Under the pieces are notes generated by a model. That model saw only the letters and a program-made list of their open reading frames with translations, was not told the DNA's origin and did not search any database. The translations under genes and the position numbers were made by a program. From Pelagomonas calceolata (taxonomy: Eukaryota), in assembly GCA_918797485.1 (NCBI GenBank), contig CAKKNE010000006.1, positions 3,286,001 through 3,350,000 of the forward strand: a stretch of DNA of 64,000 bases, in the 5' to 3' direction. Shown piece after piece: positions 13,255-51,211 of the stretch; position 1 is the first letter of the stretch; each line of letters begins with the position of its first letter.

Positions 13255-15360
13255 TTATCGGTCACGGCCGCCGCCGACCCATCTCCGCGAGTCGTAGCGC
13301 GCGGCGCCCGCCTCCGCCGCGCGGCGCAGCGCCCGGGCTTCGCGGGAGACGGCTTGCGCGTCGGGCCAGGCGCGGCCAGCCATTGCCGCGACGTCGGCGG
13401 CGGAACGGAAGGCGCGGAGCGCGTCGAGCGCGTCGGCGGCGAGGCCCGCGGCTTCGGCCGCCGCGGGCGACGCGCCGAGGCCCTCGCGGGCCAGCGCCTG
13501 TGTGGAAATCAACCGGTGCGTCGGGTGCTACGCGAACGCGCCGTAAAATTTGAATTCCACGCGGGCCAGCGCGTCGCGCCACGCCAGCGCGTGGAAGAGG
13601 GCCAGGCCGTGCGGCGTGCCCCGCGCGCCGAGCGTCGCGCGGGGCAGCACGAGGCGCTCCCGGGCCGCGCGGCCCGCGGCCGCGGCCGCGAGCCCCGCCG
13701 CGCGCCGCGACGACGCGGCGCGCGGGAGCGCCGCCGCGAGCGCCGCCGCGACGTCGCCGGCCTCGAGCAGGTCGTCGACGCCGTCCAGGGCCTCCGCCGC
13801 GGCGTCCGCCTCCGCGCGGTCGGAGACGAAGCCGTGCTGCGCGCGCAAATATGCGTCGCGCCGCGCGACGGAGCACTCGGGCTGGACGTACGACACCGTG
13901 AGCGGGGCGCCCGCCTCCACTTTCCGCTGCGTCCAGACCTCGGCGAGGCCCCCGGCCGTCGTCAGCGCGACGCACGAGGGTTGCGGCGAGTCGTTCAGCA
14001 AACTCCTCAACCGGTAGAGGCCGGACTCGAAGGCGTTGAACTGCCACTTCTGCTCCAGCGTCGCGCCGTGCAGCTGCTCGATATGTAACGACGGGAGCGC
14101 CGCCGTGGGGTCCGCGATCGTCGCCTGCGCCTCGCGTGATAGGAGAGGCGCCTCGAGGAGCAGCAGCGTGCCGGCGTCGAGGTCGCGGGCCGCGGCGAGG
14201 CCGCGGCCGCCGCCCGTGGCCGGCGCGCTCACGAGGCGCAGCGCGGGGTGCGCGTAGAGGGGCGCGTAGCCGGGCGCGAAGGCCGCTAGGCGCGCGCAGG
14301 CGACGGCGGACGGCACGGGCACGGGCAGGGGCTCCGGCGGCGGCGCGGGCGGCGGCGGCGGCGGCGCGACGCCGTCGTCGTCCGACGACGAGCCGCCGAA
14401 GAGCGCCTCCGCCGCGGTCGCGCGGGCGAGGCCGACGCAGAAGCCGCAGCCCGCGGGCGGCACGCGCTCGGACAGCGCGCGCTCGACGGCCGCGGACGCG
14501 TGGTCGAGGCTCCAGGCGACGAGGACCAGCCGGTCCGTGGCCGCGACCAGCCGCGCGGCGACCTGGGGCCCGACGACGTCGGCCGGGTCGATCAAATTCG
14601 TCGCCGCGCCGCCCTGCGCGAAGGCCCGCGGCGCGGCGCCGGCGAGCGCCCCGAGCGCCGGCGCGTTATCTGCGGGCCCGACCCAGGCGAAGGCCGACTT
14701 CGCCCCGAAGCGCACGACGAGGCCCGATACGTTCGCGTCGTCCTCGTCGCGCACGGAAAAGCGTCGCTCCTCGAAACCTGGAGACGGCGCCATATCAAAG
14801 CTCTGCACCGTCCACGGGATTTTGATGATGGACGTGGACCGCAGCTCGACCTCGTCGAAGGCCTCCACGTAATTCGTGCGCTCGAAGCCGAGGGACGCGA
14901 AGAGTTTTAGGGAGGCGGCGTTCTCGGAGGCGATCTTCGCGACGAACGTCTCGAGATGGAGCGCCTCGCGGCCGTAGCGCAGCAGCAGCCGCACGGCCTC
15001 GCCCCCGAAACCGCGGCGCCGCCGTTCCGGAACCATGACGTCGACCTCGGCCGCGAGCGGCTCGTCGGGGACGGTCAGGAACGCGTTCACGTCGCCGACC
15101 ATCGCATTCGTGGGGAAGCGGTCGTCGCCATTCTTGAAGCACTGCGCCCGGTCCAAAACGATGAACGTGAGCTTCTTGGCGTCGTCGCGCCAGCTCTTCT
15201 GGTTCTCGACTTCCTCGTCGAGCGTCAGGCGCTCGCTCGCCGTCAGGGCCAGCAGGTCGTCGTCCTGCATCCAGGCGTGGTAGCGTTTTACGTACTTTTC
15301 CTTGTAGGGCACGAGGACGCAGCGTCTTCCTACGAGCACGGTGTCCTCGTTGAGGCGCAT
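13255..15360 (-). CDS. NAT9: NAT9-like GNAT acetyltransferase fused to PAC4-like and SET domains; complement(join(13255..13497,13573..15360))
   Basis: N-terminus 'MRLNEDTVLVGRRCVLVPY...YHAWMQD...LTASERLTLDEE...QKSWRDD..KLTFIVL' matches NAT9; SET motifs 'GRGLAAARDL', 'SLLNDS', 'LTVSY'. Confidence 0.75.
13498..13564 (+). mobile_element. Introner element copy 3, internally deleted, antisense to host gene (GC-AG intron 13572->13498, 75 nt)
   Basis: Left TIR intact, right TIR decayed (tgaattccacgcgg); perfect TSD gccagcgc at 13490-13497 and 13565-13572. Confidence 0.9.
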
Positions 15361-15662
15361 GGTTGCTTTTGTGTGCGCTGCGCGAGCTCTCGCGTCGCTG
15401 GGAGCACTGCTGCCTCGCTGGTAGGACGCTCTCCGTAGGGCAAACGGTGCGCGGCTCTTTTTTTGCGAGAACTGCTTCGACCCTCACGCGAGCGGAACTC
15501 AAGCGATCCCTCCGCTGCAAAGCACGACAATGTGAGGGCGTCTATGGCCTTTGTCGAGGCACGCTCGTGGTATCGTACCTAGGTATACCGATACCGATAT
15601 CAGTATCCCTACGGTATCTCTAGGCTCTATCTCTACTAGTAGGCTCTATCTCTAGGCTAGTC

Positions 15663-15710
15663 GGGAGGGGTACGGGGAACCCCGCGCGTCGTGACTAGCC
15701 TGAGCCTGAG
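15663..15710 (+). repeat. Dispersed repeat B copy
   Basis: gggaggggtacggggaaccccgcgcgtcgtgactagcctgagcctgag. Confidence 0.8.
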
Positions 15711-15748
15711 TCAGATTCCTACCTCGAGCGTCCAGTGCCGCTACGTTG

Positions 15749-16095
15749 TTAAGCGTGATGGCGGGGTGGAAGAAGAGAGGCATAAGCCGCGACGGACTCG
15801 TCCTCAGACGCAGTCTCGGCGTCGAAGTAGTCGTCGGGGAGCGTCTCGAAGCGCTCGTCGTCCGCCAGCTTCGAGAAGATCATGCAGAAGTCGTCGGCCG
15901 TGATGGCCGCGTCGATGAGGTCGAAGTGGAGCACGGCCTTGAGCTCGCGGTACGTGAGCGCGAGGAGGTCGTCGGCGGTGCGGAACGGGGCGCGCGGGTC
16001 GTTCTGGTTCGCCTATGCTGAGGCGGCGACGCCGTTGGCGCGGGCGCGGCCGCTGGGCGTCGAGGCGGCGCCGTTGCTCACTACGGACGTGTAAT
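15749..16095 (-). pseudogene. Possible degraded gene fragment
   Basis: GC3-biased frame interrupted by in-frame TAG at 16013-16015; the two minus-strand ORFs on either side share a frame. Confidence 0.3.
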
Positions 16096-17452
16096 GTTGT
16101 TGTTTGCTGTGTCTCCTGCTTGTGTTCCAGGGGTCGCGGCGATGGCGTGGGGGGGGGCTCACTTTCTTGTTCTTGGCGTGACGCGCGTCGCCGATTCGCG
16201 CGTCGATTCGTCGTTGGCGGACGCGGGCCGCGTCTTTCACAATAGCATACTTCCTAAGCATAACCGCCTCGGCAACGCCTGGGACTACATGAGAGTGTTC
16301 GCGAAGAAGGGCGACGACGGGACCGCCGCGTCGCGCATCGCGGCGGACCTCGCCAAGGCGCTCGCGCCGGCCGGTGGGGACAAGGTCGCGACCGCGGACC
16401 TCTGGGACGAGCACTTCGAGAAGGTGTACCTTCTTGCCGATGCCGTCATGGACCGCGTCGTCGCCGAGGCGTGAATGCATCGCTTCTGGAGGGGTTAAGA
16501 GGCGCTTGCTTGTACTACGAGTACCCTGGAGGGGGGACAGCGCGTCGCCGACGTCATCGGGTGGCTGCTTTCTAGTGTCTTACAGACAGCTAGCTAATTT
16601 TCAGCACAGCACGGAGGACGAAACGGCCCACGCGGGGTATAACATACTAAGACATCAGAAACGATTAACAGAAAATACACGCCTTTAAAATCTCGCGACA
16701 CAGCGACTAGAGACACCTGAAATCTAAAAAGTGACATCTGAAAGTCAAAGCCATCGCGGCGCGCGTCGACGCGGCGGACTATGAGCGGCTGTTGGGCGAC
16801 CGGCTCCGCGCCGAGGGCTTCGCCGCGCCCCGGAAGAAACGCAGCCGTGCCTCGTCCGGCGACGACGACGCGGCGTTGTACATGTACGTACGAGGAGCGG
16901 AGTTGCCCGCGCGGAAGCGCAGCACGCGCGACGCGGCGAAGAAAGCTAGCTCCAAATGGATCGGCGCCTGAGCGGTCCGAGCGGACGTCCACGCGACAGC
17001 TTCCCCCGCCATCATGATGGTGGCGTCGACGTCAGTATCAAATAATTAAATTTTTTGGCCAGTACGTGACCCATGTTGTTTGCTGTCTCTCACTGTTGTT
17101 CTTCACCGCGCGTCGCGGATTCGTCGGCGGCGTCTTTCACAATCCTACTAGACATCCTTTGTACCAGGACGAGTTTGCTGTGCTAGTCCTAAAGAACAAC
17201 GAGCTAGCGGAGTGAGACACTAGAGCTCACAAGGTCTCCTCGAGTCTAAGGAGGCCCAAAGCACCGCCCCTCTCGCACCAGTGCCGCGGTAACGCCGCCT
17301 GCGAGCCATACGCCATCGCCGCGTGAGATCACAGAGATCATACCCAGCCTCCAGCGACGACGCAGCATAAAACGCCGTCTTGAGCCGTAACTTTGCCAGA
17401 CTTCAGACCTCAGTGGCCTGCACGCAAGCGCCACCGCACGCGGGGCGCCACC

Positions 17453-17869
17453 ATGAACCGCCTCACCGGCTTCTTCGGCGGCGGCAAGAAGTCTAATGAC
17501 GACGGCGGCATGGGCCCCGAGAAGACGGACCTGGCCGTCGGTGGGGAGAACTTCGGGGGCGGCGACTTCGGCGGCCCCGGGTCCATGGCCGCGCCGCGCG
17601 TCGGCGGCGCGCCGCCGGGCCAGGCCGCGACGCAGGCCGAGCTCCAGCGCGCCGTCGTCGCCGAGCAGCAGCGCGCGCTCGTGCAGCAGGTCATCGCGAA
17701 GCTCACCGAGGTGTCCTTCGACACGTGTCTGCAGAAGAAGCCCGACTCCACTCTCTCGGCGGGCGAGCGCGCCTGCATCCACACCGTCGTGGGCAAGTAC
17801 CTCGACACGTCGGAGTTCGTCCTCGGCCGGTCGACGAAGAAGGCGCAGCAGTCGCAGATGCTCTCTTAA
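17453..17869 (+). CDS. Small Tim chaperone (Tim8/Tim13 family)
   Basis: 'VQQVIAKLTEVSFDTCLQKKPDSTLSAGERACIHTVVGKYLDT' matches the Tim10/DDP pattern, with only the two inner Cys. Confidence 0.8.
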   Translation: MNRLTGFFGGGKKSNDDGGMGPEKTDLAVGGENFGGGDFGGPGSMAAPRVGGAPPGQAATQAELQRAVVAEQQRALVQQVIAKLTEVSFDTCLQKKPDSTLSAGERACIHTVVGKYLDTSEFVLGRSTKKAQQSQMLS

Positions 17870-17876
17870 TAAATTA

Positions 17877-18422
17877 TCACAAGCTTTTACGCGCCTCGCG
17901 CCGCCGCTTCTTCCGGAGCTTCCGCTCCTTGCGCTCCTCCGGCGTCTCGTCGCGCGCGCGCTTCGCGGGGACGGCCTCGGCGCGCCGGAGCTTGCCGCCG
18001 CCGCTGCGCTGCGCGCGCATGCCGAGGCGCGCGCCGCCCGTCGCCGCGAAGCACTCGTCGAGGAAATTTTGGGAGGAGTCCTTCTTCGCTGGTTTCGCCT
18101 TCTTCTTCGCCTTCTTCGCCTTCTTCGAACCGTGGCGGTCGTTCATGGCGTCGAGCGCGCCGGCGAAGGCGTCGACCCAGCCCTGGTCGCCGAACGCGGC
18201 CTTGGCCGAGCCCTTGTGCAGGCCCGCGGCGAACTGGGCCTCCACCGTCGCGTCCGCACCCAAGCCCACGTTGTCGCCGCGCTTCCGGTGCTCGACGTGG
18301 CGCTCGGCGCCCTGCTCGTGCTTGCCGAGGCCCTTGCCCTCGGTCCAGCCCATGGACGCCATGAGCTTGCGCGACACGGCGGAGTAGGCGCCGGCGGCCG
18401 GGGCGGCGGGCGGGCTCTTCAT
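17877..18422 (-). CDS. G-patch domain protein (PINX1/GPATCH4-like)
   Basis: 'RKLMASMGWTEGKGLGKHEQG...NVGLGA'; Lys-rich C-terminus. Confidence 0.8.
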   Translation of the reverse strand: MKSPPAAPAAGAYSAVSRKLMASMGWTEGKGLGKHEQGAERHVEHRKRGDNVGLGADATVEAQFAAGLHKGSAKAAFGDQGWVDAFAGALDAMNDRHGSKKAKKAKKKAKPAKKDSSQNFLDECFAATGGARLGMRAQRSGGGKLRRAEAVPAKRARDETPEERKERKLRKKRRREARKSL

Positions 18423-18620
18423 TTTGGGCTCGTCCTGCTTTGCTGTCGTGCTGCAGCCTGCAGCGTTGCAGGAGCGCTGTTTAAAGCTATGCCAGCCGTT
18501 GATCCACGCGTGCCGTGGATGCTGCGGTCCTGTAGACCGGTAATTAGTTGTGTCGGGTTTCAACCGTGCGTTACACACGACAACATCGCCCGATGAATGG
18601 GCCAAGTTTGCTAGGCATCC

Positions 18621-18643
18621 CTAGTGTCTTACAGGCCGCTAGC
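18621..18643 (-). promoter_or_regulatory. Conserved intergenic motif A (GCTAGCGGCCTGTAAGACACTAG), representative copy
   Basis: Eleven near-complete copies in the window, all outside the inferred coding regions; function inferred only. Confidence 0.6.
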
Positions 18644-18906
18644 GCGATTTCCTAGCGGGAGCCCTGGAAGCGTCTTCACACTAGCGCGTCCTAGCACCGT
18701 GACAGCCCACTAGTGCTAGCACCGTAACATGATAACCGTAACAATATATTCTGCAGGATAGCTCCCCCGGAACCCCCCTACGTGCTCAAAAAAATTGACA
18801 AGGCTCGCAAAAAGCTTTTCGAGGTTCGCTACGTACGGGTGCGGAGTTGCTAAAAGCCCGAAAGATCTTTTTGTCTGTCACACAAACACAGGTACATCTT
18901 ATAAAG

Positions 18907-19914
18907 TCAGGACGGCGGCCGCGCCGACGCCACAAAATCACGGTTGACGAACCACGTATTCCGGCCGTCGTGGCCGTGGAGCGCGTACGCGGGCGCCGCC
19001 GCGGCCATGTGCGCGACGACGGCGTCGCGGAACGCTGCGGGCCGCGTGCCCAGCGGCGAACCAGTCTCCACGCAGAGCACGCCGAAGGAGAGCCGGCGCC
19101 AGTCGATCGTGCGCAGGACTTCCAGCTCCGCGCCCTCCACATCCAAAATGGCGAAATCGACATGCGCGACACCGAGGCGGTCGACGAGAATCTCCGTCAG
19201 CGACGCGCACGCGACGAGTGCCACGCGGCGGCCCTGCCGCTCTCGCCGTTTTGCGGGGCCCGCGGTCTCGTACGCCACGTCGTCGGCCGCGAGGGCCCGC
19301 GACAGCTCCGTCCAGTCGACGCGGGCCCACGAGCGCGACGCGTTCGCAAACGCCTCCGCCGCGCGGACGTGGTGGGTCGCCAGGAACTCCTCGGGCGCAA
19401 ATTCGGCGACACATCTCACCTCCGGGAACTTGTCCGCGGCGAGCCAATGCACCGCGCCGCTCGCGTCGCAGATCGCCGCGACGACGCCCGCGGCGCCTGC
19501 TGCCCGCGCGCGGCGCCGCGGCCGCGCCGCCGGCGACGCATCGACGACGACCCTTCGGAACCCTGCCGCCGCGTCGAAGAGGAGGCTCTCGGACGCGCGG
19601 ATGCCGTCGAGGCCGCCCAGCTCGAGGACGACGCCGCGCTCGCGCCGCCAGAAGAAGCGGGCGAGCGCCTCATAGCCCTCGCAGTCCGTGGAGCCATAGC
19701 GTCCCCCCTTGCGGTTCCGCTCGCGGTCGCACGTCTGGAATCGCCGCGACTTGGCCAAGCGCGCGTCCCACGCATCGCCGTCCACCGCCGCACGGAGGCC
19801 GTAGTCCCGCGCCGCGACCCACGGCGGCGCGTCGATGCTCGCGTCGAGCAGCGACGGTCCCGCGGCCGCGCCGCGCGACGCACCGGCGAGTAGCGCCGCC
19901 GCCAGGCGCCGCAT
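18907..19914 (-). CDS. FkbM-family (Methyltransf_21) methyltransferase, secreted
   Basis: 'GVVLELGGLDG' and 'HVDFAILDVEGAELEVLRTIDW' motifs; signal peptide. Confidence 0.85.
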   Translation of the reverse strand: MRRLAAALLAGASRGAAAGPSLLDASIDAPPWVAARDYGLRAAVDGDAWDARLAKSRRFQTCDRERNRKGGRYGSTDCEGYEALARFFWRRERGVVLELGGLDGIRASESLLFDAAAGFRRVVVDASPAARPRRRARAAGAAGVVAAICDASGAVHWLAADKFPEVRCVAEFAPEEFLATHHVRAAEAFANASRSWARVDWTELSRALAADDVAYETAGPAKRRERQGRRVALVACASLTEILVDRLGVAHVDFAILDVEGAELEVLRTIDWRRLSFGVLCVETGSPLGTRPAAFRDAVVAHMAAAAPAYALHGHDGRNTWFVNRDFVASARPPS

Positions 19915-23418: not shown

Positions 23419-23424
23419 CAACAA

Positions 23425-25491: not shown

Positions 25492-26201
25492 CCTTACCGA
25501 GCGCCTCGCGGCTTTCGGTGTCTTAAAAGCTTATTTATATACCGGCGGTCCCGTTGCGAGATAACCTGTGGAGACCGACGCGGGTGAGGGCTTTGATTGG
25601 CGAGTGGCGAGCGCGCGGTCGCGGCGGTACGGTGGTGGGCGCGGCCGAGACGACGTCGGAGAGCGTCCCCGGTGTTTCACCCTCTCAGAGCGGCGACGCG
25701 CCGCGTTTCGGGCGGCAGCGTGCCCCGCGGGCGTCGAGCAGTCCTGCTGCGCGGCGATCGCCGGTGGCGCTCGCTCGCCGCAGGGCTAAACTCGAACTCG
25801 CTGGTAAGCGATTTGGTTAATCTCGGACGTACCGCCGCGAGGCCAGCGCAGTCTTCTCTCACGCGTAGTAGATGGGTCGTAGAATGTATAGCACGCGGCT
25901 GCTGACCGGTTGTCGGCTAGGCGACGGTCTCCAGGCCCGATAATTATCGAGCTCGCCTACCAAGCCCAGCGCTCGCTGGTTCGGGTTCTTGAATCGTTTT
26001 GGCTCTAGAACGAGCTAAGATTTGTCCTAAGAGCAAGCTGGAGGCCTCTTCAATGGCCTGGACACTTCAGCGGGCGATCTGAAATACCCGCACGCTGGAT
26101 TTTCGACTTTCGCAGTACTTTCGCGCTGTGCCGGCAGCCCTGCAGGCAATTACGGCAGCGAAATTGCGTATCGGGACATCGCGCAAGCACGCTGCCCAGC
26201 C

Positions 26202-27910: not shown

Positions 27911-30310
27911 ATGATGAGGCGTGCTGCCCCCCTGCTGGCCCTCGTCGCGGCCGCGATGGCGGACGGCAACGCCACGAAACAATGCGAGCCCTTCCGCATC
28001 GTCAGCGACCACAACGGCTTCGGGAACGCGATCTTCGCGTTGTATCGAGCCTTCGCGCAAGCACAGCGGTGCGGGACATCAGTAGAAATCCTCTCCAATA
28101 AAGAGAAGCACGACCGCCTGTCTCGCATCTGCGCGCGCCTTACGTGTGAAGGCGCGACCATCAAGGACCAGGGTTCATTTAGATGGGGCGAGGATCGAGC
28201 TGGTTTATTATCGACTTCCTTGGGGGGCCAGGAGAACGCCTGCCCGCCCGGGTGTGGGCTGCGGGGCGGCAAGCGTATTCATGTTACTCGCATGCCAGTC
28301 GATTCTGCAAAGTTCACGCCCTCCAACAATGGCGCGTGGCTGGCGCCGTTGACATGCGTCGGTGGTGATAATACTGGTAAGTTCACCACAGCAGCACATA
28401 TCCGGTCGATCCGCTTTGATTTTGAAAAATCGCCGAAGGAGGTCCTGACGCGCGCGCGGACCCACCCCGACGACCGGGAGAATGATACGATGTCGTCCTA
28501 CAAAGGGCGCGACGACGGTCACATGTTGTACGACGTGGACGAGTGGCGGTTCCTCGCCAATCATATACGAGACGGTGTGAATAACATCTACATCGCCTCG
28601 GACAACGCGCCGGCGCGCGATGAATTAGCAATGAGGATCGCCGATGGTGGAGGCACGGCGTGCTTCGTTAACAGAGCGTCGGGCCACTCGTCCTGGCATT
28701 ATGGGGAGGAGGCCGACGACCACGCGCTGACGGACTGGTGGCATTTAGCACAAGCCCAGACCATCCACCAGATCGATTTGCGGTGCCGGGGGAGGACGGC
28801 GCATTCCTGCCAGTTCAATCGCAAAAGATGTCCCCGGGGCTCGGTCAAGCGCGGCCGCAACAACGCCGGGTCAAGCCACTGCCGCGGGTCCTCCTTCTCG
28901 CACGCGGCGCACCGGCTCTACGCGGGCACTCGAACGCGCGCCTACACGTGCGTTAATTGTCAGACCTTGTCGTCGGCGGCGCCGGGGGCCAAGGAGTCGC
29001 GTCGCGACGCCGACACGGCGGCGGCGGCGGCGGCGGCAGCACCCGCCGCGGCAATCAAAGGCAACTGCACGTCCGACATCGAACGGAAACTTATTGAACT
29101 CCTCCCCGGCCCGGGCATCCTATCAAGAGGAGAGCTGAGCAAGAAAATCGCGTGGGTCCCCGACGAGCGAAAGTCGTGCGTCGTCGCGCGGAGCTTGCTG
29201 GAGATCCGCGCGACGCTAAACCCGGCGCACGACCTCGTGGAGGCCGTATCCAAAAGCGTGTCCGGGCGACGCACGACGCGGCTCTCGGCGACGACGCGGA
29301 GGCGCTCCCGCAAGGCCCTCGGCGACGTCTTCTTCGAGGCGTTTCTGGACATTGCGTCAGATAGGCTCCTGGCGCTGGACGCCTGCCCCGCATCGACTCC
29401 GACGAAAACGTTGATCTGGTTCGTCACGCGCCGCGACGCCAAAGCTCGGCTCTGCGTCAAATTGGCATTGGCGGCGCTCGAGGCCGAGGCGCGAGGCTGG
29501 GGTTTGGGACTTGTCCATACTGATCCAGAAGCCGCCGCGGCCGTCGTCGACGCCCTGCCGGAGCGCTGCCGCGGCCGCGTCGCCCTCAAATCGGCCAAAG
29601 GGCTTGCTGACGTGATCCTAATGAAGCAGAAATGGGGCGACGATAATCCCCAATTTACGAGGTGGGACCTGTCCTGCCTCCAGGCGTCTTCGGTCTACTA
29701 CGAGGGGCTGGACGCGCCCGTTGTGATCGCGGGCGGCGAAGATGTTTTAGTGAGACGCCCGATCACGGACGACGAACTGGCCTACACGATGCTCGGGGCG
29801 CCGTGGCGGCGGACGCAGATTAGGTTCGGGGGCAACGGGGGCTTCGCCGTGCGCGACCCGGCTTTTGTCAGGGCCGAAGGCCGTGTGGAAATCAACCAGT
29901 GCGTCGGGTGCACGAACCGGCATCGCCACGCCATCGAGAAGGCGTCGCGTCGATGGCGTGGAGGTCGACGCGAAGATTCAGCAGAACGTTCCGCACAGGC
30001 CGAAGGGATTACGATCGACCCGCGCGAGAATTTGGACGCGTGGGCGAACGCCTGCCGGAAGATGGGTAAAAGGGCCGACGACGTCCACCTCTCATATAAG
30101 CTCGGACTGCTCTATGATCGAGGGAACCTAGGCGCGTTCAAGCCCGCGTCGCGGGAAGTTTTGTTGAACTTCGCCGCGGAGATGGTCGAGAGCCCGGGCG
30201 ACCCCGCGGCGCTCCACGCGGCCTGGCGCCATCTATCGATAGACTACGTCGTCCGGCAGTTCGAGAAGGTTGTTAGTGTCGTCCGCGACTTCGAAGCGCC
30301 TGCGGCCTAA
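27911..30310 (+). CDS. Fucosyltransferase-like (NodZ/GT23-type) plus DUF5672-like two-domain protein; join(27911..29872,29999..30310) if spliced
   Basis: 'NGFGNAI', 'AAHIRS', 'IYIASDN', 'DWWHLAQA'; then 'LGAPW...GGNGGFAVRD'. Confidence 0.6.
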   Translation: MMRRAAPLLALVAAAMADGNATKQCEPFRIVSDHNGFGNAIFALYRAFAQAQRCGTSVEILSNKEKHDRLSRICARLTCEGATIKDQGSFRWGEDRAGLLSTSLGGQENACPPGCGLRGGKRIHVTRMPVDSAKFTPSNNGAWLAPLTCVGGDNTGKFTTAAHIRSIRFDFEKSPKEVLTRARTHPDDRENDTMSSYKGRDDGHMLYDVDEWRFLANHIRDGVNNIYIASDNAPARDELAMRIADGGGTACFVNRASGHSSWHYGEEADDHALTDWWHLAQAQTIHQIDLRCRGRTAHSCQFNRKRCPRGSVKRGRNNAGSSHCRGSSFSHAAHRLYAGTRTRAYTCVNCQTLSSAAPGAKESRRDADTAAAAAAAAPAAAIKGNCTSDIERKLIELLPGPGILSRGELSKKIAWVPDERKSCVVARSLLEIRATLNPAHDLVEAVSKSVSGRRTTRLSATTRRRSRKALGDVFFEAFLDIASDRLLALDACPASTPTKTLIWFVTRRDAKARLCVKLALAALEAEARGWGLGLVHTDPEAAAAVVDALPERCRGRVALKSAKGLADVILMKQKWGDDNPQFTRWDLSCLQASSVYYEGLDAPVVIAGGEDVLVRRPITDDELAYTMLGAPWRRTQIRFGGNGGFAVRDPAFVRAEGRVEINQCVGCTNRHRHAIEKASRRWRGGRREDSAERSAQAEGITIDPRENLDAWANACRKMGKRADDVHLSYKLGLLYDRGNLGAFKPASREVLLNFAAEMVESPGDPAALHAAWRHLSIDYVVRQFEKVVSVVRDFEAPAA
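29881..29998 (+). mobile_element. Introner element copy 4 (GC-AG intron 29873-29998, 126 nt, stop-free and in frame)
   Basis: Perfect TSD gccgaagg at 29873-29880 and 29999-30006; left TIR ccgtgtggaaatca; right TIR eroded to ttccgcacag. Confidence 0.9.
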
Positions 30311-38788: not shown

Positions 38789-38806
38789 TCTACTTGTGTT
38801 TCTTAG

Positions 38807-42632: not shown

Positions 42633-42707
42633 ACTTCTACCGGATTGGATCCCTCGACCGCCTAAGTCTGTAGTACCGGCATTTTATTCATGTCACATTT
42701 AAACATT

Positions 42708-45700
42708 CTAGCCCGGGCCTGGCGCGGCGTACCCAGCCGGGACCGCGGTAGGATTCCAGTGTTGGACCGACGTCGCGGTGTAGCCCGGGAGCGGCCAGAC
42801 CCGCCCCCGCGCGTTCAGGACGGACGAGAAGTCCCGCGTGAGTTTGGCCAAATACGGGTGGGGCGGTCCAATCTCGAACGCCAGCGCCTCCGGCGTGAAG
42901 GACGCGTTCACCGCGTACGGCGCGACGCGCACGACCCTCCCTTGTAATTCGTGCGCCCACATCCCCGGCGTGTCGTCCACGATCGCTAGACGATCGTCCG
43001 CGATCAGCGACAGCGACAGGTCCGCCGGCAACGACTTCTGGGGCATCCCCGTCTCCCTATATCTTTGTCGAGCTTCCGCGTCGATGACCGTGACAGGCAG
43101 GTCCCGCCAGATCAAGGATATCGCCGAGTAGTAGGCGGCGTTCCCGATATTGGCAGAAGCTAAGCCATCGAGGTGGTCCGCGATGGCCCTGATGACGCCC
43201 GCGCCCTCCAAGTTCATCGTCACGATCCTCAAATCCACGTTGCCCGCGTTCCGCAGCGCCCAGATTAAATCTGACGCGCCCTTGCGCACGGCCACCATCA
43301 GATCCAAACCCTGGTCCTCGTGGTTTTGCGACGCCTGGAGCCTGCAGACGCCCTCCGCGAGCATGTCGGCGTTGCCCGGAAAAACCTTGGAAGGGAGCAC
43401 GTGCACTAAAGTTTGATCTAAATCCAACAAAACGACGTTGCGCCGCACGGCGGGGTGGTGTTGGAGCACCGGCGCAGTTTCCGTGGTGGGTTCCTCCGGC
43501 CCGGCCCAGCCCTGGGCGTTATTTGCCAATGGTAACCTATTGGGATTGGACGGCGCGAGGCTCCCGGTCAGCACGAGGGCAGGACTGCCAGGGGCGAGCT
43601 TCTTGATCCCGGTGCCATACGAGTACGTCTGGGGGAACGCCGTCTCCGTCGCTGGCCCGCCGGGGCCGTACGCGCCCGCGTCCTCGGGCGCCCGGAAGTC
43701 GTCTCCATGTTGTTCGCGGCCGACCACGACCACGCGCCCATTACCCTTGCCGCCCGGCGCGTGGGCCCATCTTAACTTGTCGCCACCAAACTGCGTGATC
43801 GTTCGCTTGATGCCCGTGCCCTTGCACTTCTTCGCGCGGTGCCCCGGACACGCGTCGTGGAACTCCGTCATAAACGTGGGATCGATGCCATCTCTATTAT
43901 TCGCGACGAGCCAGTCGTACAAGGCGTCCACCAAACGCTGGCCCGGTAACCTATTGTCGCCGGGGACCGGCGCCGCCGGCGCGGCGCCCATGCCCGCGGG
44001 CCCGTAGGTGCCCGCGGCCACCGCGGCGTTGCCGTCCGGGCCGTACGTCGGCACGACGCCCGCCGCCGCCTTTTTCAGATAGGCGGCCGTGTGCGGCAGG
44101 CCCGTCGCCGGGTTCAGGCCGCCGGCGGCCGCCGCCGCCGCCGCGCCGGGCAGGAAGGGCGCCGGGATGCTCGTGCTCAGCTCCCGGTGGCCCAGGGGCC
44201 CCGAGAGGGCGTCCGTCGGCCAGCCAGTTGGTGGCGGCGCGCATGCCTCGATCGTGTGCGGCAGGCCCGTCTTCGCCGATTGGCCGGCGAGCGTCTGCGT
44301 CACGTCCTCGATGCACGCATCAATAGCCTCGGGCGCGCCCGTGAACGCGATGCGCCTCCTTCTATTACAGCCAAGAGTCGAGGGCTCGTCGCGGTCCGCT
44401 ATTCTAGTCTGCGTGTTTCCGTACAAACGCCGCAGCCTATCTAAGTTCGACCCCTTGCCGCCGACAATCAACCCCACGACGACGCTTGGCACCGAGACGA
44501 CCCTCAACACCTCGCCGATATTCGTATCCGGCGCGCGCGGGAACGTCTTCGGGCCCCAGCCACTGTCGTCGCCGTCCTTCTCCGTTGAAGCCGGCTGCAG
44601 CCGGGCCCAGCCCACCGTTTGTAAGCTGGGCGGTTCTGCGGAAGGGACGACGGGCGCCGCGCCGCCCGGACCATAAGTCTCCGAGGCGATGGGGCCGTAA
44701 CTACCAGAGGCGCCGACCTGAGTCGTAGTTCCCGCGTCGCCGGGGCCATAGGCGGCCAAGAACGGGCCCTCGACGGGCGGCGAGAACTTCGACTTCTTGC
44801 GGCGGGCCTTGTCCTTCTGGCGCAGCATGCGCCGCTCGTGCGCCGAGCCCTCGGCCGGCGCGGCGCGCGGCGACCGCTCGCGCTTGGGGATGCGGGCGGC
44901 GCCCGCCGGCGGCGGCGCGTAGCTCGCGAGGCCGGCGAGGCCGCCGCGCGCCGGCGCCGGCGGCGCGTGGCTCCCGAGGCCGCCGAGGCCGCCGCTCCGC
45001 GCCGGCTGCGCGGCTGCCGGCGCGGCCGTGGCGCCGCCTGGTGGCGCGTAGCTTCCTAAGCCGCCGAGGCCGCCGCTCCGTGCTGGCGCCGGCGGCGCAC
45101 ATCTCGCGACAATGATCTCGCTACCATCTACGAGGCCGAGGCTCGCTGGCGTCTCGTTGCCCGTGAGCGCCGGCGAGCTGAGATTACCAACCGAGAAGTG
45201 CAGCGCATCCACTTCGAAGCCTTTGCGCGTCGCATGGGCCTTGAACAATTCACGCAATGCCGCCGTCGAATTCACCACGCAGGTCTCCTCTTCGAGAGCG
45301 CGGGGGCCGAGGACCTGAATTGTAATACGACCCGGCGCCGGCGCGCCGTAGCTTCCTAAGCCGCCGAGGCCGCCGCGCTGCGCCGGCGCCGGCGCCGCGG
45401 CGTCCGCCGCGGCCGCCTGCAGCGCCTTCGCCGAGACCTTCTTCGCCCGCTTCCGCGCCCGCGGGTCCGCGGCCGGCGGCGCGGCGGCCCGCGGCTTCTG
45501 GCCCTCACCGCGCGCGGCGGCCCAGAAGGCAGCGTCGGGCGGCGGCGCCATCGGCGGCAGCCCGGGTGCCAGCCCCAGCGCCTTGCTCTGCGCGTCGGTG
45601 CCCCAGAAGGCAGCGTCGGGCGGCGCCTTCCCGAGGGGCGTTTTGGGCGGCTTCGCGCTGAATCCGTACGGCGGTGCCCCACCCGGCGTCGGTCGGCCTG

Positions 45701-46433
45701 ACAGCGCGACTGTCGCCGCCGGGGTCGCCTTCGGGCGCGGGATCGGCGCGGCGGCGGCCGCCGGGGCCGGCGCGCGCGCGCTGGGCCGCACTGGCGCGGC
45801 GAACGACGCCGCGAGGGGCGGCGGGCCCGGCGCTGGTGCCGGCGCGGGCGCCGGTTTCGGCGTCTTGCGCGGGACGCACTCGAGCGCGGCCTCCTCCTCC
45901 TTCGGCGGCGGCCGCGGCGGCGGCGACGGCCGCTTCTTGACGGGCGCGGGCGCCGCGGCCGCGGCCGCCTTCGACGCGACCTTCTTCGGCCGCGGCGCCG
46001 GCGCCGGCGCGGAAGCCCAGACGGCCTCGGCCCGCGCGAGCGCCTGCTCGCCGACGGACGACGCCTTCTTGGCCTTCTTCTTCGGGCGGGGCTGCGATGG
46101 CGGCGCGGCCGCGACGGGCGCCGGCCGCTCCGACGCCTTCACGGGCGCGGGCGCGGCGTCGTCCTCCTCGTCGAAGAGGGCATCGACGCTCGCCGCGGGC
46201 GCCGGCGCCGGCGCCGCAACGACAGCGGGCCCGCGCCGCGTGACCCAGCCCTCGACGTCACGACGCTTGTGCCACTGGTGGTCGACGACGGCCCTATCTC
46301 TCGGATCCACCCAAGCCACGCAATACATCCCTTTGTCGTCGGGGCCGCGCGTCACCGTGCCGGGCCAGGGCGCGTTGCCGTAGCCCGAGAATTTTCTGGA
46401 GACGGCCGAGCCCAGCAAGGAGTCGGCCTCCAT
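42708..46433 (-). CDS. Multidomain protein: Tudor-like, SUMO-like, KH and FCP1/SCP-type HAD phosphatase domains
   Basis: Likely start MEADSLLG at 46433; 'ETPASLGLVDGSEI' (SUMO-like), 'VGLIVGGKGSNL' (KH GxxG), 'LLDLDQTLVH' and 'IVDDTPGMW' (FCP1-like). Confidence 0.7.
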   Translation of the reverse strand: MEADSLLGSAVSRKFSGYGNAPWPGTVTRGPDDKGMYCVAWVDPRDRAVVDHQWHKRRDVEGWVTRRGPAVVAAPAPAPAASVDALFDEEDDAAPAPVKASERPAPVAAAPPSQPRPKKKAKKASSVGEQALARAEAVWASAPAPAPRPKKVASKAAAAAAPAPVKKRPSPPPRPPPKEEEAALECVPRKTPKPAPAPAPAPGPPPLAASFAAPVRPSARAPAPAAAAAPIPRPKATPAATVALSGRPTPGGAPPYGFSAKPPKTPLGKAPPDAAFWGTDAQSKALGLAPGLPPMAPPPDAAFWAAARGEGQKPRAAAPPAADPRARKRAKKVSAKALQAAAADAAAPAPAQRGGLGGLGSYGAPAPGRITIQVLGPRALEEETCVVNSTAALRELFKAHATRKGFEVDALHFSVGNLSSPALTGNETPASLGLVDGSEIIVARCAPPAPARSGGLGGLGSYAPPGGATAAPAAAQPARSGGLGGLGSHAPPAPARGGLAGLASYAPPPAGAARIPKRERSPRAAPAEGSAHERRMLRQKDKARRKKSKFSPPVEGPFLAAYGPGDAGTTTQVGASGSYGPIASETYGPGGAAPVVPSAEPPSLQTVGWARLQPASTEKDGDDSGWGPKTFPRAPDTNIGEVLRVVSVPSVVVGLIVGGKGSNLDRLRRLYGNTQTRIADRDEPSTLGCNRRRRIAFTGAPEAIDACIEDVTQTLAGQSAKTGLPHTIEACAPPPTGWPTDALSGPLGHRELSTSIPAPFLPGAAAAAAAGGLNPATGLPHTAAYLKKAAAGVVPTYGPDGNAAVAAGTYGPAGMGAAPAAPVPGDNRLPGQRLVDALYDWLVANNRDGIDPTFMTEFHDACPGHRAKKCKGTGIKRTITQFGGDKLRWAHAPGGKGNGRVVVVGREQHGDDFRAPEDAGAYGPGGPATETAFPQTYSYGTGIKKLAPGSPALVLTGSLAPSNPNRLPLANNAQGWAGPEEPTTETAPVLQHHPAVRRNVVLLDLDQTLVHVLPSKVFPGNADMLAEGVCRLQASQNHEDQGLDLMVAVRKGASDLIWALRNAGNVDLRIVTMNLEGAGVIRAIADHLDGLASANIGNAAYYSAISLIWRDLPVTVIDAEARQRYRETGMPQKSLPADLSLSLIADDRLAIVDDTPGMWAHELQGRVVRVAPYAVNASFTPEALAFEIGPPHPYLAKLTRDFSSVLNARGRVWPLPGYTATSVQHWNPTAVPAGYAAPGPG

Positions 46434-46830
46434 TTTTAAGGGGTGCGGAGTTCGCCTCCGAGCGCCGGTCGCGCGGAGTCGGCCTCCAGGCGGGCGAAGT
46501 TTTCCTTCGGGGCCGTGGAGCTGCCTCCGGCGATCGGCGCGCGGAGTCAAACGCGCTGACGGACGTCGCGCGCGGAGTTTCACTCCGGCGACTGGTTAGG
46601 TCCTGTTCGCAGCGGGAGTACACTCCCACGCCTTGATCCAGCTGCTGAACGCTGGGTATCGCTGTCTGGAGTTAACCTCCAATCTTTACAGGTTTTCCGC
46701 GTCCGTTGCGCGCGTTCAGAACTGTTTTTGTGGCCCGCTGGCGCGATTATTTTTTTCGAGCTTAGCGGCTTGTAAGACACTAGGAAACAAAAACCGAGAG
46801 TCTATCACGTACAATCATTACACAGGCGCC

Positions 46831-48333
46831 TCACTCATCCGGCGTATCGACGCGCCGAGCGGCCACCAGGTCCTCCTCGTCGAAGGACCCCAGGAACCGG
46901 GGAGCCGTCGCTCTAGCTCGCGTCGCCAGCGCCTCGGCGTGCCAGGGCGCCACCGACCGCCCAATTGTCGGCGAGGCGACGGCGGCCTCATCCAACAGCC
47001 CTTCCACATCACCGGAAGACGCTGGCACGTCGCCGAAGACGTGCTCCCGTAAAAATCTCTCGACGCGCTGGGACACACCCCTAGGCCGCACGGAGTTGTG
47101 CGTCCCGGGGCACACGCAGAGCTCAGCTTTTGGGAGTGCCGCATGCACGGCGTGCGAGTGTGCTGGCGGTACTAAAGCATCATCAAGAGCACACAGTACC
47201 AATGTAGGACACGCACACTCGCGCGCGTGCCTCTCGATGTCGACATCATAGATATCAAAACCAGCGCGCCTTCGAACAGCACCCCTTACCAGTCGCAACG
47301 CCCCGATCGACGCGACGCGCGCGGCGCCGTTGAGTTCGGAGCCACCGAGAGCGGATTGCACGACATCTAAAGCAAGCTGCCGTAGCGATTGGAAGGGCGA
47401 GTCGAGTATTAACGCTACTACATTGGGATCCCTTGTAGCAGCGTACAACAACGCCGTCGCCGCGCCCATACTGCGCCCCCACAACGTCACTTGCCCGCAG
47501 TCCTCCGCATCAATAACTGCTCTCACATCGTCCCGTTCCCGCCACCCGAGCGTCGTGTGCTCGCCACCACTCAAACCAGACCCGGCGCAGTCCAACGCGA
47601 TGACCTGGAACCCCATTTGTAGACATGGGCCGAGCACCGACAGCGCTTCCAACCTACACCCTGCATTCGCGTGTACGTACAGTAAAGTCTTCCTGTCCCT
47701 GTCCTCCACTCCGCGCCACACCGAATACCGCACGACCTCGCCTCTTTGATTCGCTGTCGTGGCGTCCTGCCGTCTATACGCTTTCCCACCAAAAGGAAAA
47801 GCTCGCGGACCGAGCTGCGACATGTCGTACCGCGCGCGCGGCGGCCGCACGAAGGCCTGCACGGCCTGCTCGAAGGCCTGGCGCGTCTTCTTGAGCGTCG
47901 AGGCGTCCTCATCTATGTCACCGTCCGAGTCCTCCTCGGAGATGGCTGTCGTAATTTGGTCGAGCTCGTCGGCGGTTTCGTATTGGGACGGCGTCGTCAA
48001 TTGCGCCACGGCGCGCCACCAGTTGATTTTGGCTTCCAAGGTCTCGAAGCGGAGGAGTAGTGCGGCGTCGTCGTCGCGTGGTTGGATCCTCACCAGTAGG
48101 TGGGGCTCGCCCGTCAGTTCGACGCTGTCGAGGCTCGCTCGATAAATGGGCGTGGATCGGTTGCCTTCTGGGTAGATTAGTAGTGCCGGCCTCGGGCCCC
48201 TTTGGACGACGACGACGCGCCTCAGCTCCCGCGCCAGTGCTTTATCGATTCGCGCTTGTAACACGTCGGTGCGCCAGGGCGGCAGGGCCGGGTCGCCGCG
48301 CTGCTCGGCGACGTCGTAGCACTGGCAGAACAT
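46831..48333 (-). CDS. Alpha/beta hydrolase (YqkD-like) with N-terminal PH-like domain
   Basis: 'VRPPRARY', 'LDCAGSGLSGGE..TLGWRERDD', 'WGRSMGA', 'GTHNSVRP'; likely start MFCQC at 48333. Confidence 0.8.
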   Translation of the reverse strand: MFCQCYDVAEQRGDPALPPWRTDVLQARIDKALARELRRVVVVQRGPRPALLIYPEGNRSTPIYRASLDSVELTGEPHLLVRIQPRDDDAALLLRFETLEAKINWWRAVAQLTTPSQYETADELDQITTAISEEDSDGDIDEDASTLKKTRQAFEQAVQAFVRPPRARYDMSQLGPRAFPFGGKAYRRQDATTANQRGEVVRYSVWRGVEDRDRKTLLYVHANAGCRLEALSVLGPCLQMGFQVIALDCAGSGLSGGEHTTLGWRERDDVRAVIDAEDCGQVTLWGRSMGAATALLYAATRDPNVVALILDSPFQSLRQLALDVVQSALGGSELNGAARVASIGALRLVRGAVRRRAGFDIYDVDIERHARECACPTLVLCALDDALVPPAHSHAVHAALPKAELCVCPGTHNSVRPRGVSQRVERFLREHVFGDVPASSGDVEGLLDEAAVASPTIGRSVAPWHAEALATRARATAPRFLGSFDEEDLVAARRVDTPDE

Positions 48334-48893
48334 CTTTTTTTGCGCTCGCGCGTCGTCGGCGTCGCGCGTATTCAAATGAATGCGAGAGTCTCTTGGCCTG
48401 TCCGGAGTGTAGGGCTGTGCTGCGCGGGTAGCAGCCGAGGAAATCAATACAGCTATGGAAAATGCTTCGCCGGCAGTCGCTACCGCTGCGAAACGAGCCA
48501 GCCGGGCTCCGCGCGGCGCGAATTTCGACTCTGCTGTCTGCCTGCCCAGCTTGGCCGACGCGAAGCAAGGCGTCAAGCGCCAACTGTAGCTCTCCAACGC
48601 GTCGGGCTGGACCACTACGAGGTCGCACTCGCGAAACAAAGCATGCCCAAAAAGCGACAAAATCAGCCCACGTACCATCGCATTGGCATCGATAGCGCCG
48701 CCATAACTGCATCCCGGAGGATACAGAGCTGCGAAACGGAGCACTGTGAAGCCTATACCACGAATTGAGTCGCTTGCTTGCATTGAGAGCAGCAGCGACT
48801 AGTACCACTTGCAAGACAGCAGCAGCCATATTTGCTTGCAAAAAGGCAGCCGCCAGACGACACAAGCCACCAGCAGCCCTACGCAACGCAACC

Positions 48894-49637
48894 ATGAAGT
48901 ACTACCCCCAGTACAACAATTTCGTGACATGGCCCGCCATGTTGATCCCGCCGGCGGTTTATGTGGTCGTCGCCGTCCTGGCAAGTAGGAGTGTCACCCC
49001 GGGCAAGCCGGTATTACCGGCAGGACTACTCAAAAACGTTTTGAGAGTATACAACGTCGTGCAGATCGTGCTCTGCACCTACATGACTTGGGGATTACTA
49101 CCCGTCGTCCAACCCCCGAACATCTTCGGCATCTCTACGGAATTCGACGCCCGAGGCGAGTGGTTCATCTTCGTGCACTACCTTTCCAAATTCCTCGACT
49201 GGTTCGACACCTTTTTTATTATCGTGAAGGGCAACGCGAAGAAGCAGTTATCTTTCTTACACGTCTACCACCACTCGTCGATTGGGCTCATGTGGGGTAT
49301 TCTACTCATGTACGACAACGCGGGCGGGACGGCGCGCTACGGCGCCATGATCAATAGTGTGACGCATGTCCTGATGTACTCCCACTACCTCTGGACGTCT
49401 TTTGGAAGAAAGAACCCCTTCAAGGCACTTTTGACCAAATGGCAAATCGCGCAATTCTACTCGTGTTTTGTTCATGCGGTGCTCGTGCTGACGGGCGTCT
49501 GGATCGTCGAGACGCAGCTCAAGCTCGAGCTGGCCTGGCTCCAGTTCTGCTACCACATCACGATGGTCTACCTCTTCACGTTCAAGATGGCGTGGATCCC
49601 CAAAATTTATATCGACCTCGAGGACAAGTCCGCTTAA
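48894..49637 (+). CDS. Fatty acid elongase (ELO/GNS1/SUR4 family)
   Basis: 'SKFLDWFDT', 'QLSFLHVYHH', 'NSVTHVLMYSHY', 'TKWQIAQF'. Confidence 0.92.
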   Translation: MKYYPQYNNFVTWPAMLIPPAVYVVVAVLASRSVTPGKPVLPAGLLKNVLRVYNVVQIVLCTYMTWGLLPVVQPPNIFGISTEFDARGEWFIFVHYLSKFLDWFDTFFIIVKGNAKKQLSFLHVYHHSSIGLMWGILLMYDNAGGTARYGAMINSVTHVLMYSHYLWTSFGRKNPFKALLTKWQIAQFYSCFVHAVLVLTGVWIVETQLKLELAWLQFCYHITMVYLFTFKMAWIPKIYIDLEDKSA

Positions 49638-49727
49638 TTTTTATTAATATTACTACATATACACACCCGTCGAGTCGATGGCGTCGGAGTGGACGCGATG
49701 ACTTGCGCTGCCGCGTCACACAAAAGT

Positions 49728-51211
49728 TCACGACAGGAAGTCGTCGTCGTCGGCGTAGGCCTCCGCCAGCGCCGCGGCCGTCGTGCGCGCCGTCAGCGTC
49801 GTCGTCACCACGACCAACAGCACGCCCGCTATGAGTAAAACGGCGTCCTCCGCCACCGGGAGGCCGTTGCGCTTTGCCAACAACAAATGTACCAAAGGAG
49901 GCAGCGCAAATGATAAAGTGCACACCGCGACGGCGCCCACTAAACCGACGACCAAGGCGAAGGCCGGCATGGCGTAGGCGACGAGCGCCGCGGCGACGGC
50001 GACGAGGCCTCTTACCACAAGCCGACGGCACCGCGGGATCCGCGCCTCGACGATCTCGCCGCAGCCCACCAAACCAATAGGAATCGACGCCACGCAGGCC
50101 GCGGCCATGGCCAACCGTACCAAAGTAGGAGTAACCCCCATGGGGAGGGCGTCCAAGACGTTGCCGGGCACCGAGTCGTCTGGTGCTGGCCCATCATAAA
50201 GTCGGGCCACGCCGGCGCCCACGATCACGTACGCCGCGAACGCCGTAAACAAAGCGACTCTTTGTGCTGCGGCAAAGCGCTCGGGAGCGGCCATCGATGC
50301 TTCCAAATGCAGCGCCACGGGCGCGACCTGTGTGCACCCGACAAGTCCTCACTAAGTCATTTCTCGGCGATGACGCGGCCGTCCTGGCTCGGTCGAGCGG
50401 TGAAGAACCGGCATCGGCACGCCATCGAGCAGGCGTCGCGTCGATGGCGTGGAGGACGACGCGAAGATTCAGCACGAACGCGCCGTAAAATTTTGATTTC
50501 CACACAGGTCGCGACGCCGAAACAAAAGGCCATCACTCCCACCGCGGCCCCCACATCAGCGACGGAGTCGGGCTTCGTCCAGTCGAAGGTGCCGCTCTGC
50601 GCCCATCCCAATCTTTCCCTTCTCAAAACGCCGTAGAGCGCGATGGCCGCGAGCGAGCAGGCGAGGGCTACCAACGCAGCAGCTCCCGCGGCCGCGAGCG
50701 AGCCGAAGTCGTCGACCAACGCGAGCGGTACGGCGGCCGCGGCGGCCAGCGCGACGTCGACGCCGAGCGGCAGTGCTAAGGGAGTAGCTCTCACGAAGTC
50801 GTGGAGCGCTACTAAATATGCCACAGCTACGCCAAACATCAAAACGAAGAAGACGGCCTCGACGACGCCCGCGACCGCCGCGCCACAGACCTCGCGGGTC
50901 AGCGCCGCGAGCGGGGACTCGCCGCCGCCTTCGTTAAATCGACGCAGCGCATCGGCGTCGAGGAGGTCGCGCGCCTGGATGAGCCGGCGCCCCGCCCAAT
51001 CATTCCACGCCAACAACGCGAGCAGCGCCAGTGCGCATGGCAATACGCCTCCGGTCGAGAATGCGTGCGGCACAGCGAGCACGCCTGTACCGATACAAAA
51101 CTTTAGCATCGTCGTCACAGCCCCGAGAAATGACGTGTTGCCCGTCTTGCTCCCGCTGCCGGCGAGTGGCAGGGTCTCGCTGGGTCTACGCGAGCCGAGT
51201 GGTTCCGGCAT
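49728..51211 (-). CDS. Amino acid transporter (AAAP/SLC36-38 family); complement(join(49728..50327,50516..51211))
   Basis: 'LKFCIGTGVLAVPHAF', 'LVVGLVGAV..CTLSFALPPL'; splicing gives FCFG|VAPVALHLEASM. Confidence 0.85.
50328..50507 (+). mobile_element. Introner element copy 5, antisense to host gene (GT-AG intron 50515->50328, 188 nt, phase 0)
   Basis: TSD ggcgcgac (50320-50327) / gtcgcgac (50508-50515); right TIR intact; left TIR shortened to ctgtgtg by a deletion. Confidence 0.92.

What the first reader, a model, noticed from the sequence alone, without database searches (positions are those of the whole stretch)
13490..50515. The introner splices in both orientations, and the acceptor-side CAG is always preserved
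Seen: copies 3 (13498-13564) and 5 (50328-50507) are antisense to their host genes and use the opposite TIR (CTG read as CAG) as acceptor. The terminal CAG is intact on the acceptor side in all 8 copies. The unused end is mutated in copy 3 (ccacgcgg for ccacacag) and copy 4 (ccgtgtgg for ctgtgtgg). Copy 5 has a deletion just inside its acceptor TIR yet keeps the terminal 7 nt. Inference: selection acts on splicing rather than mobility, and a symmetric CAG-ended TIR doubles the tolerated insertion sites.
Basis: partly seen in the sequence, partly recalled or inferred. Interest (0 to 1): 0.7.

Follow-up and report, generated by a model that had tools for sequence, protein, structure and literature searches.

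The report
Two-way intron-making transposon of marine alga
A short mobile DNA repeat in the marine alga Pelagomonas calceolata sits inside genes facing either way and is likely cut out as an intron in both cases, because both of its ends finish in the splice signal AG; this behaviour is already known from a sister alga, and the new part is a count showing that the AG stays intact at the end in use while the other end changes.

Summary
Observation largely confirmed; mechanism already known. The window holds 8 copies of a ~200-nt element with 15-nt TIRs and 8-nt target duplications. Copies 3 and 5 are antisense to their hosts. Removing copy 5 gives a public P. calceolata protein exactly (431/431 aa); removing copy 3 matches an uninterrupted ortholog. 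The window's 2-versus-0 asymmetry is not significant alone. In 79 further copies from marine metagenomes, oriented by codon usage, 43 are sense and 36 antisense, all 79 have a GT/GC donor in the duplication, and the terminal AG is changed at 8 donor-side and 0 acceptor-side ends (p 0.008; about 0.003-0.08 for 87 copies after a strand-bias correction). Corrections: AG, not CAG, is invariant (3 acceptors read TAG/AAG); the rest of the TIR decays equally at both ends; symmetry doubles tolerated events, not sites. Either-orientation intron creation is reported for Aureococcus, and such elements are reported in this genome. Side finding: copy 5's site carries opposite orientations in wild lineages.

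The parts
2442..2640 (+). Copy 1 predicted intron (GT donor in upstream 8-nt duplication 2442-2449; element 2450-2640, sense; exonic duplicate 2641-2648); host has DUF6625
12769..12951 (+). Copy 2 intron, 183 nt GT..AG, sense, in a bestrophin-like gene; duplication matches only 2 of 8
   Evidence: joint in 23/20/18 reads and one contig of another study
13498..13572 (-). Copy 3 predicted intron, 75 nt GC..AG; element 13498-13564 antisense to a GNAT+SET gene; in-frame stop inside; donor-side end changed and part of a 13-nt direct repeat
   Evidence: (ortholog colinear after 75-nt removal); no read coverage of flanks
29873..29998 (+). Copy 4 intron, 126 nt GC..AG, sense; donor-side end changed at position 2; acceptor-side TIR lost from position 11 inward
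   Evidence: 126-nt skip in 28/32/28 reads and one contig of another study
50328..50515 (-). Copy 5 predicted intron, 188 nt GT..AG; element 50328-50507 antisense to an amino-acid transporter gene; acceptor-side TIR reduced to 7 nt
62020..62190 (+). Copy 6 predicted intron, 171 nt GT..AG, sense, PhyH-domain gene
62226..62431 (+). Copy 7 predicted intron, 206 nt GT..AG, sense, same gene; 2-nt insertion in acceptor-side TIR
62829..63023 (-). Copy 8 predicted intron, 195 nt GT..AG; element 62829-63015 reversed in a minus-strand ABC-transporter gene, so sense to its host
13255..15483 (-). Host reading frame of copy 3 (GNAT and SET domains), transcribed on the minus strand
49728..51208 (-). Host gene of copy 5 (Aa_trans amino-acid transporter)

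Best explanation
These are copies of a non-autonomous DNA transposon (introner) whose two inverted ends both finish in AG, so each copy is likely spliced out whichever way it faces, using a GT or GC at the start of its 8-nt target duplication as donor, and selection likely removes only changes that destroy the AG in use. Shown: TIR, duplication and orientation anatomy; exact removal in RNA reads for two sense copies; protein colinearity after removal for both antisense copies; near 1:1 orientation; AG changed only at donor-side ends. Inferred: splicing of antisense copies; mobilisation by a transposase in trans; that donor-side changes are neutral point mutations (mostly T to C) plus end-replacement events that lengthen the duplication and are survivable only at the donor side; that the rest of both TIRs is free to decay.
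For: 79 of 79 copies oriented by a codon model have GT (60) or GC (19) at the donor-side duplication against 17% background; in the 59 copies whose duplication fits one strand only, the model agrees 59 of 59. Orientation 43:36, p 0.50. AG changed donor-side 8 vs acceptor-side 0 of 79, sign p 0.008; 10 vs 0 of 87 with the window, p 0.002; same direction at both physical ends, 4 of 49 and 6 of 38 as donor side, 0 of 38 and 0 of 49 as acceptor. TIR positions 6-15: 36 vs 43 substitutions. Reads: copies 2 and 4 removed exactly. Copy 5 removal = CAH0380138.1, with uninterrupted orthologs at 75% identity; copy 3 removal matches a 74% identical uninterrupted protein and the unspliced frame has a stop. 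Duplication mismatches fall at third codon positions in 21 of 31 cases, as expected if one duplicate is coding.
Against: Inside the element, T on the transcript strand changes 1.2-2.1 times as often as A (87/1635 vs 61/1683, p 0.019, first setting); with this as null the 10:0 split has p 0.003-0.020 in three settings and 0.030-0.075 with single-copy changes only. The G of AG is uninformative (no substitution at either end). The window alone is not significant. About 2,600-2,900 reads per run carry the unspliced acceptor junction of an apparently antisense copy elsewhere in the genome, so removal is not always complete; the spliced share there is unknown.
Confidence: 0.85

Rival explanations
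1. The donor/acceptor difference at the terminal A is mutational: a transcript-strand bias (T to C over A to G) and ascertainment, with no detectable selection.
For: Inner columns show the bias; expected acceptor changes are only 0.3-4.9 in 87 depending on the setting, so zero has p 0.007-0.77 taken alone.
Against: 10:0 stays below p 0.05 in 7 of 8 corrected tests; A to G does occur nearby on the acceptor side (position 6: 6 of 47 non-subfamily right ends, partly inherited); copies were picked by an inner motif and oriented by flanks, not by their ends; AG is required by the major spliceosome (established knowledge).
Confidence: 0.07
2. Donor-side changes are favoured, because the two TIRs pair in the pre-mRNA and hide the acceptor AG, and a change opposite the A opens the stem.
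For: Predicted folds pair the A of AG with p>0.8 in 40 of 45 sense and 26 of 32 antisense intact copies but in 2 of 9 copies with a changed donor end. Donor-side positions 2 and 4 change in 10 and 8 of 87.
Against: Without the 4 end-replacement cases the position-2 rate is 6 of 83, like T sites in the duplication (5 of 78); donor-side C1, G3, G5, whose change would also open the stem, show no substitution; copy 2 with an intact stem is spliced. Folding is a prediction, and a mismatch opposite the A lowers its pairing by construction.
Confidence: 0.12
3. The 'unused' end is the real donor in GC-duplication copies: the GT at TIR positions 5-6 is used and 12 nt stay in the mRNA, as described for an Aureococcus sp. 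introner.
For: Gozashti 2022 Fig. 2F legend; both window copies with a changed end have GC duplications.
Against: Copy 4 reads skip 126 nt, the duplication donor, and no 114-nt skip is among the 15 joints shown (109 hidden); the copy 3 ortholog fits the 75-nt removal without a gap and the 63-nt one with a 4-aa gap; changed ends are not enriched in GC copies (3 of 10 vs 19 of 79).
Confidence: 0.05
4. Antisense copies are unspliced, gene-breaking insertions.
For: No joint seen for copy 3.
Against: 36 of 36 antisense copies have a host-strand GT/GC donor and an intact AG; only 1 of 36 could be read through in frame; both flanking exons stay conserved with orthologs; the public gene model removes copy 5.
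Confidence: 0.03

Closest known systems
Aureococcus anophagefferens introner elements (Huff, Zilberman, Roy 2016; paper not held; seen only through passages of citing papers)
   Same: One splice site carried in the element, the other taken from the target duplication; 8-nt duplication and intron creation in either orientation are ascribed to it in 10.1101/2020.10.14.339549 (passage); length about 210 nt (PMC9481584 passage).
   Different: Different species; sequence identity to the Aureococcus family could not be tested. A donor-side versus acceptor-side count was not found in searches, but the primary paper and its extended data were not readable.
Pelagomonas calceolata putative introner elements (Guerin et al. 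2022, PMC9481584; passages and supplement passages)
   Same: Same species; 956 putative elements with GT and GC donors, AG acceptor and conserved TIRs; intron peak near 210 nt (203 + 8 here).
   Different: The passages seen say nothing on orientation or end decay; the logo figure and one supplementary file could not be seen, so identity of the family is likely, not shown.
Polarella glacialis ILE classes 6, 8, 10 (10.1101/2020.10.14.339549, passage)
   Same: 8-nt duplication donor, either orientation.
   Different: Those classes are biased to one orientation; here 43:36. Donor GH there, GT/GC here.
Aureococcus sp. family 4 introner adding 12 nt (10.1101/2022.06.06.494994, passage)
   Same: Pelagophyte, 8-nt duplication.
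   Different: It uses its own donor and adds 4 aa; here removal is exact where tested.
Parallel intron gains by fungal ILEs (PMC4457414, abstract)
   Same: Independent insertions within about 15-25 nt of one gene in different lineages, as at copy 5's site.
   Different: There between species; here among close wild relatives (93-98% aa) and with opposite orientations at one site.

Membership tests
MITE-type introner of the Aureococcus kind | Multi-copy, near-identical short introns with similarity ending at the element borders | tested here: met
   8 copies in the window, 122 hits in metagenomes
MITE-type introner of the Aureococcus kind | Terminal inverted repeats | tested here: met
   15-nt TIR at both ends
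MITE-type introner of the Aureococcus kind | 8-nt target site duplication | tested here: met
   7 of 8 window copies match at 7-8 of 8; 83 of 96 unique wild sites match at 6 or more of 8
MITE-type introner of the Aureococcus kind | Acceptor carried by the element, donor co-opted from the duplication | tested here: met
   79 of 79 GT/GC; read joints for copies 2 and 4
MITE-type introner of the Aureococcus kind | Exact removal, mRNA unchanged | tested here: met
MITE-type introner of the Aureococcus kind | Introns formed in either orientation | tested here: met
   43 sense, 36 antisense; protein evidence for copies 3 and 5; no read joint for an antisense copy
MITE-type introner of the Aureococcus kind | Insertion into nucleosome linkers | tested here: inconclusive
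   No CpG periodicity in flanks (119 of 200 shuffles as high); a weak proxy, no nucleosome data
MITE-type introner of the Aureococcus kind | Sequence homology to the published Aureococcus element | not testable with these tools
   Paper and eukaryotic genomes not held
Named DNA transposon superfamily with 8-nt duplication (hAT, P, Merlin; recalled) | Autonomous partner with matching ends and a diagnostic transposase | not testable with these tools
   No genome held; no partner in the window or viral contigs

The most novel reading that the evidence does not exclude
Because both ends are interchangeable acceptors, orientation is a neutral, polymorphic state of one intron: at copy 5's exact site wild lineages carry the element in both directions (3 sense records, 2 antisense records plus the window), with further independent insertions 8 and 21 nt upstream and unrelated introns beside them. 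Either introners flip in place through their TIRs, or one 25-nt stretch is hit again and again within a species complex; both would let intron gain, orientation and splicing cost be measured as population polymorphisms in a dominant ocean alga. The bold form (in-place flipping) is weakened by copy 2's site, where 29 of 29 read-through records share one orientation.
Probability: 0.2. Interest if true: 0.6.

Novelty: already known. Interest (0 to 1): 0.3.

Why it matters
It confirms with independent copies the accepted model of how transposons create introns, and shows how narrow the constraint is afterwards: one dinucleotide at one end. That predicts how such introns lose every trace of their origin. 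The more useful lead is population-level: wild Pelagomonas lineages differ in presence, position and orientation of these introns at one site, which makes parallel intron gain and orientation neutrality countable.

Tried and rejected
Whole-genome test: no genome held, so metagenome copies were used instead. Reads across copy 3: no coverage, no verdict. Use of the TIR's own GT as donor (+12 nt): rejected for copy 4, disfavoured for copy 3. Selection against cryptic GT donors: T in GT changes no more often than other T (25/503 vs 62/1132). A mobile subfamily with a changed end: changed copies do not form a clear group and are no more diverged (p 0.89; neighbours), and one shared site is changed in L018 but intact in L065. 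A branch point inside the TIR as a needed signal: positions 10-15 change equally (8 vs 10) and copy 4 lacks it yet splices. Palindromic target preference: 20 of 79 duplications fit both strands, background 20%. CpG periodicity as a linker proxy: none. Viral contigs: 53 hits of the 15-mer, none aligning over more than 23 nt of the element. Prokaryote genomes: 1 hit at a contig end, probably misbinned. Orientation flips at copy 2's site: none in 29 records. Earlier scan notes: three look-ups, nothing.
Full report
What is there. The window (65% GC) holds 8 copies of one element, 67-198 nt, with a 15-nt terminal inverted repeat whose outer end reads CAG on the outgoing strand, and an 8-nt target duplication. 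A codon model trained on the window's own frames, and agreeing with RNA strand in the stretch laid, puts copies 1, 2, 4, 6, 7 in plus-strand genes and 3, 5, 8 in minus-strand genes. The species is Pelagomonas calceolata: the translation with copy 5 and one duplicate removed equals CAH0380138.1 at 431 of 431 residues.

Splicing. PolyA reads of one sample (X21-X23, about 6 in 100 of each run) show the 183-nt removal of copy 2 in 23, 20, 18 reads and the 126-nt removal of copy 4 in 28, 32, 28 reads; contigs of a run from another study (X5, RNA by guess) show both (15 joints shown, 109 hidden). Both copies are sense. For copy 3 the gene is transcribed on the minus strand at 13756-14217, but the flanks of the copy have no coverage; they are 80% and 88% GC. 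Antisense splicing therefore rests on proteins. Copy 5's exons cover Aa_trans positions 2-207 and 211-406, the public model removes it, and 13 records of a cluster at about 75% identity read straight across. Copy 3 contains an in-frame stop, and a 74% identical protein aligns without a gap after the 75-nt removal, with the downstream exon conserved.

Is the asymmetry real? In the window, 2 of 8 against 0 of 8 is chance-level, and the acceptor-side TIRs are otherwise as damaged. Of 122 hits, 99 showed both ends (4 admitted and 3 re-bounded by eye), 3 were duplicates, 13 had duplications matching under 6 of 8, and 4 had weak strand calls; 79 remained. They are 43 sense and 36 antisense (p 0.50). 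All 79 have GT (60) or GC (19) at the donor-side duplication; background is 17%, and in 59 of 59 copies where only one strand fits the model chose it. The terminal AG is changed at 8 donor-side and 0 acceptor-side ends (sign p 0.008); with the window 10 and 0 of 87 (p 0.002), in the same direction at both physical ends. Among set-aside ends, 2 of 21 donor-side and 1 of 20 acceptor-side were flagged, the latter a 2-nt boundary shift with CAG intact; 13 ends had no strand call.

Limits of that result. The C at -3 is changed in 3 acceptors (TAG, TAG, AAG), so for CAG the split is 8 to 3, p 0.21. The G of AG shows no substitution at either end. TIR positions 6-15 carry 36 donor-side and 43 acceptor-side substitutions, the whole TIR 54 and 48, deleted bases 28 and 26. 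Inside the element T on the transcript strand changes more often than A (87/1635 vs 61/1683). With that null, 10:0 has p 0.003-0.020 in three settings and 0.030-0.075 when only single-copy changes are counted. Four of the 10 donor-side changes (copy 3, L033, L049, L114) make the element end copy the exon that follows the duplication, which points to end replacement at or after insertion; the other 6 of 83 match the rate at T sites of the duplication (5 of 78). So selection on the A of the acceptor is supported at modest strength, and nothing more is needed.

How it works. Inferred: a transposase in trans inserts the element with an 8-nt duplication. Shown by the counts: only insertions whose duplication starts with GT or GC on the host strand are seen in coding flanks. 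The upstream duplicate gives the donor, the far TIR gives the AG, and the downstream duplicate restores the codons; mismatches between duplicates sit at third codon positions in 21 of 31 cases. Since either end supplies AG, direction does not matter. This doubles the share of insertion events that can be spliced at a suitable site; it does not add sites. Afterwards both TIRs decay except the AG in use. Predicted folds pair the two TIRs over the acceptor, which leaves open a weak benefit of donor-side changes; the data do not require it.

What is known. Either-orientation intron creation with an 8-nt duplication is ascribed to A. anophagefferens in 10.1101/2020.10.14.339549 (passages) and both orientations in PMC10228655 (passage). 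Huff et al. 2016 itself was not held (reference seen in PMC11282704), so what I say of it is second-hand. PMC9481584 reports 956 putative elements in this species with GT/GC donors, AG and TIRs (passages; supplement passages; the logo figure and one file not seen). 10.1101/2022.06.06.494994 reports negative selection on poorly spliced introners (section 10; passages). PMC12130899 passages gave no count of end decay. Searches (listings) showed no paper on donor-side versus acceptor-side decay, but the unread primary paper may hold it.

Side finding. Read-through proteins of wild relatives at copy 5's gene (65 records examined, protein only) show this family at the window's site antisense (P0057, P0059) and sense (P0017, P0060, P0061), sense 8 nt upstream (P0002, P0049, P0050, P0055) and 21 nt upstream (P0007, P0018), other intron-like sequences at or next to the site in 10 records, and a continuous junction in 5 close records. 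At copy 2's site all 29 read-through records share one orientation and the same odd intronic flank. A local hot spot with repeated insertion is the simpler reading; parallel gains within 15 bp are known in fungi (PMC4457414, abstract). In-place flipping is not excluded.

Verdict. A correct reading of a known mechanism in a species where the elements are already reported, with a modest new count and an open population-level lead. Interest 0.3.

Noticed in passing
window 50508-50536 (copy 5 site) and P0002, P0007, P0017, P0018, P0049, P0050, P0055, P0057, P0059-P0061: Wild relatives carry this element at the same site in both orientations and at sites 8 and 21 nt upstream; 10 more records have other intron-like sequence at or beside the site. 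Protein evidence only.
   Followed up: partly
window 12769-12776 and 13490-13497: Copy 2's intronic duplicate matches its exonic one at 2 of 8 but shares the 6 nt next to the element with copy 3's left flank (chance 0.3% per pair) and a variant found in 7 of 87 copies; the odd flank is in all 29 wild read-through records. Possible local hop or conversion carrying flank.
   Followed up: partly
window 13485-13497 and 13560-13572; L033, L049, L114: Donor-side element ends replaced by the exon sequence that follows the duplication, giving direct repeats of 9-16 nt.
   Followed up: partly
loose ends at window 13497: About 2,600-2,900 polyA reads per run hold the unspliced end of another, apparently antisense copy in a highly expressed gene elsewhere in the genome; 340-610 reads hold the donor-side junction of a further copy.
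   Followed up: no
L010, L043, L045, L050, L057, L082, L104, L109: A subfamily with different TIR positions 6-9, 8 of 87 copies.
   Followed up: no
inner columns of 87 copies: T on the transcript strand changes more often than A, and TpG/CpA sites mostly gain CpG (56 of 71 inner changes).
   Followed up: partly
79 wild copies: Intron phase differs by donor type: GT 35/6/19 and GC 5/11/3 for phases 0/1/2.
   Followed up: no
window 13255-15483 (-): One reading frame joins a GNAT acetyltransferase and a SET domain; a 675-aa relative (P0067) suggests the length is real.
   Followed up: no
window 62020-62431: Copies 6 and 7 interrupt one PhyH gene and are separated by an exon of only 35 nt.
   Followed up: no
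window 25564-25904 (-): A 341-nt GT-AG intron of another kind in a very highly expressed gene.
   Followed up: no
window about 7900-10900 (+): Long 12-nt-period Pro/Thr/Ser-rich coding repeat, mucin-like.
   Followed up: no
L175 301-326: The element's left end at the end of a 2.7-kb contig in a marine proteobacterial MAG, probably misbinned.
   Followed up: partly
L008, L012, L026, L036, L040, L059, L066, L075, L081, L089, L098, L101, L110: 13 of 96 wild sites have poorly matching duplications; some look like assembly joins through the repeat, others may be real like copy 2.
   Followed up: partly
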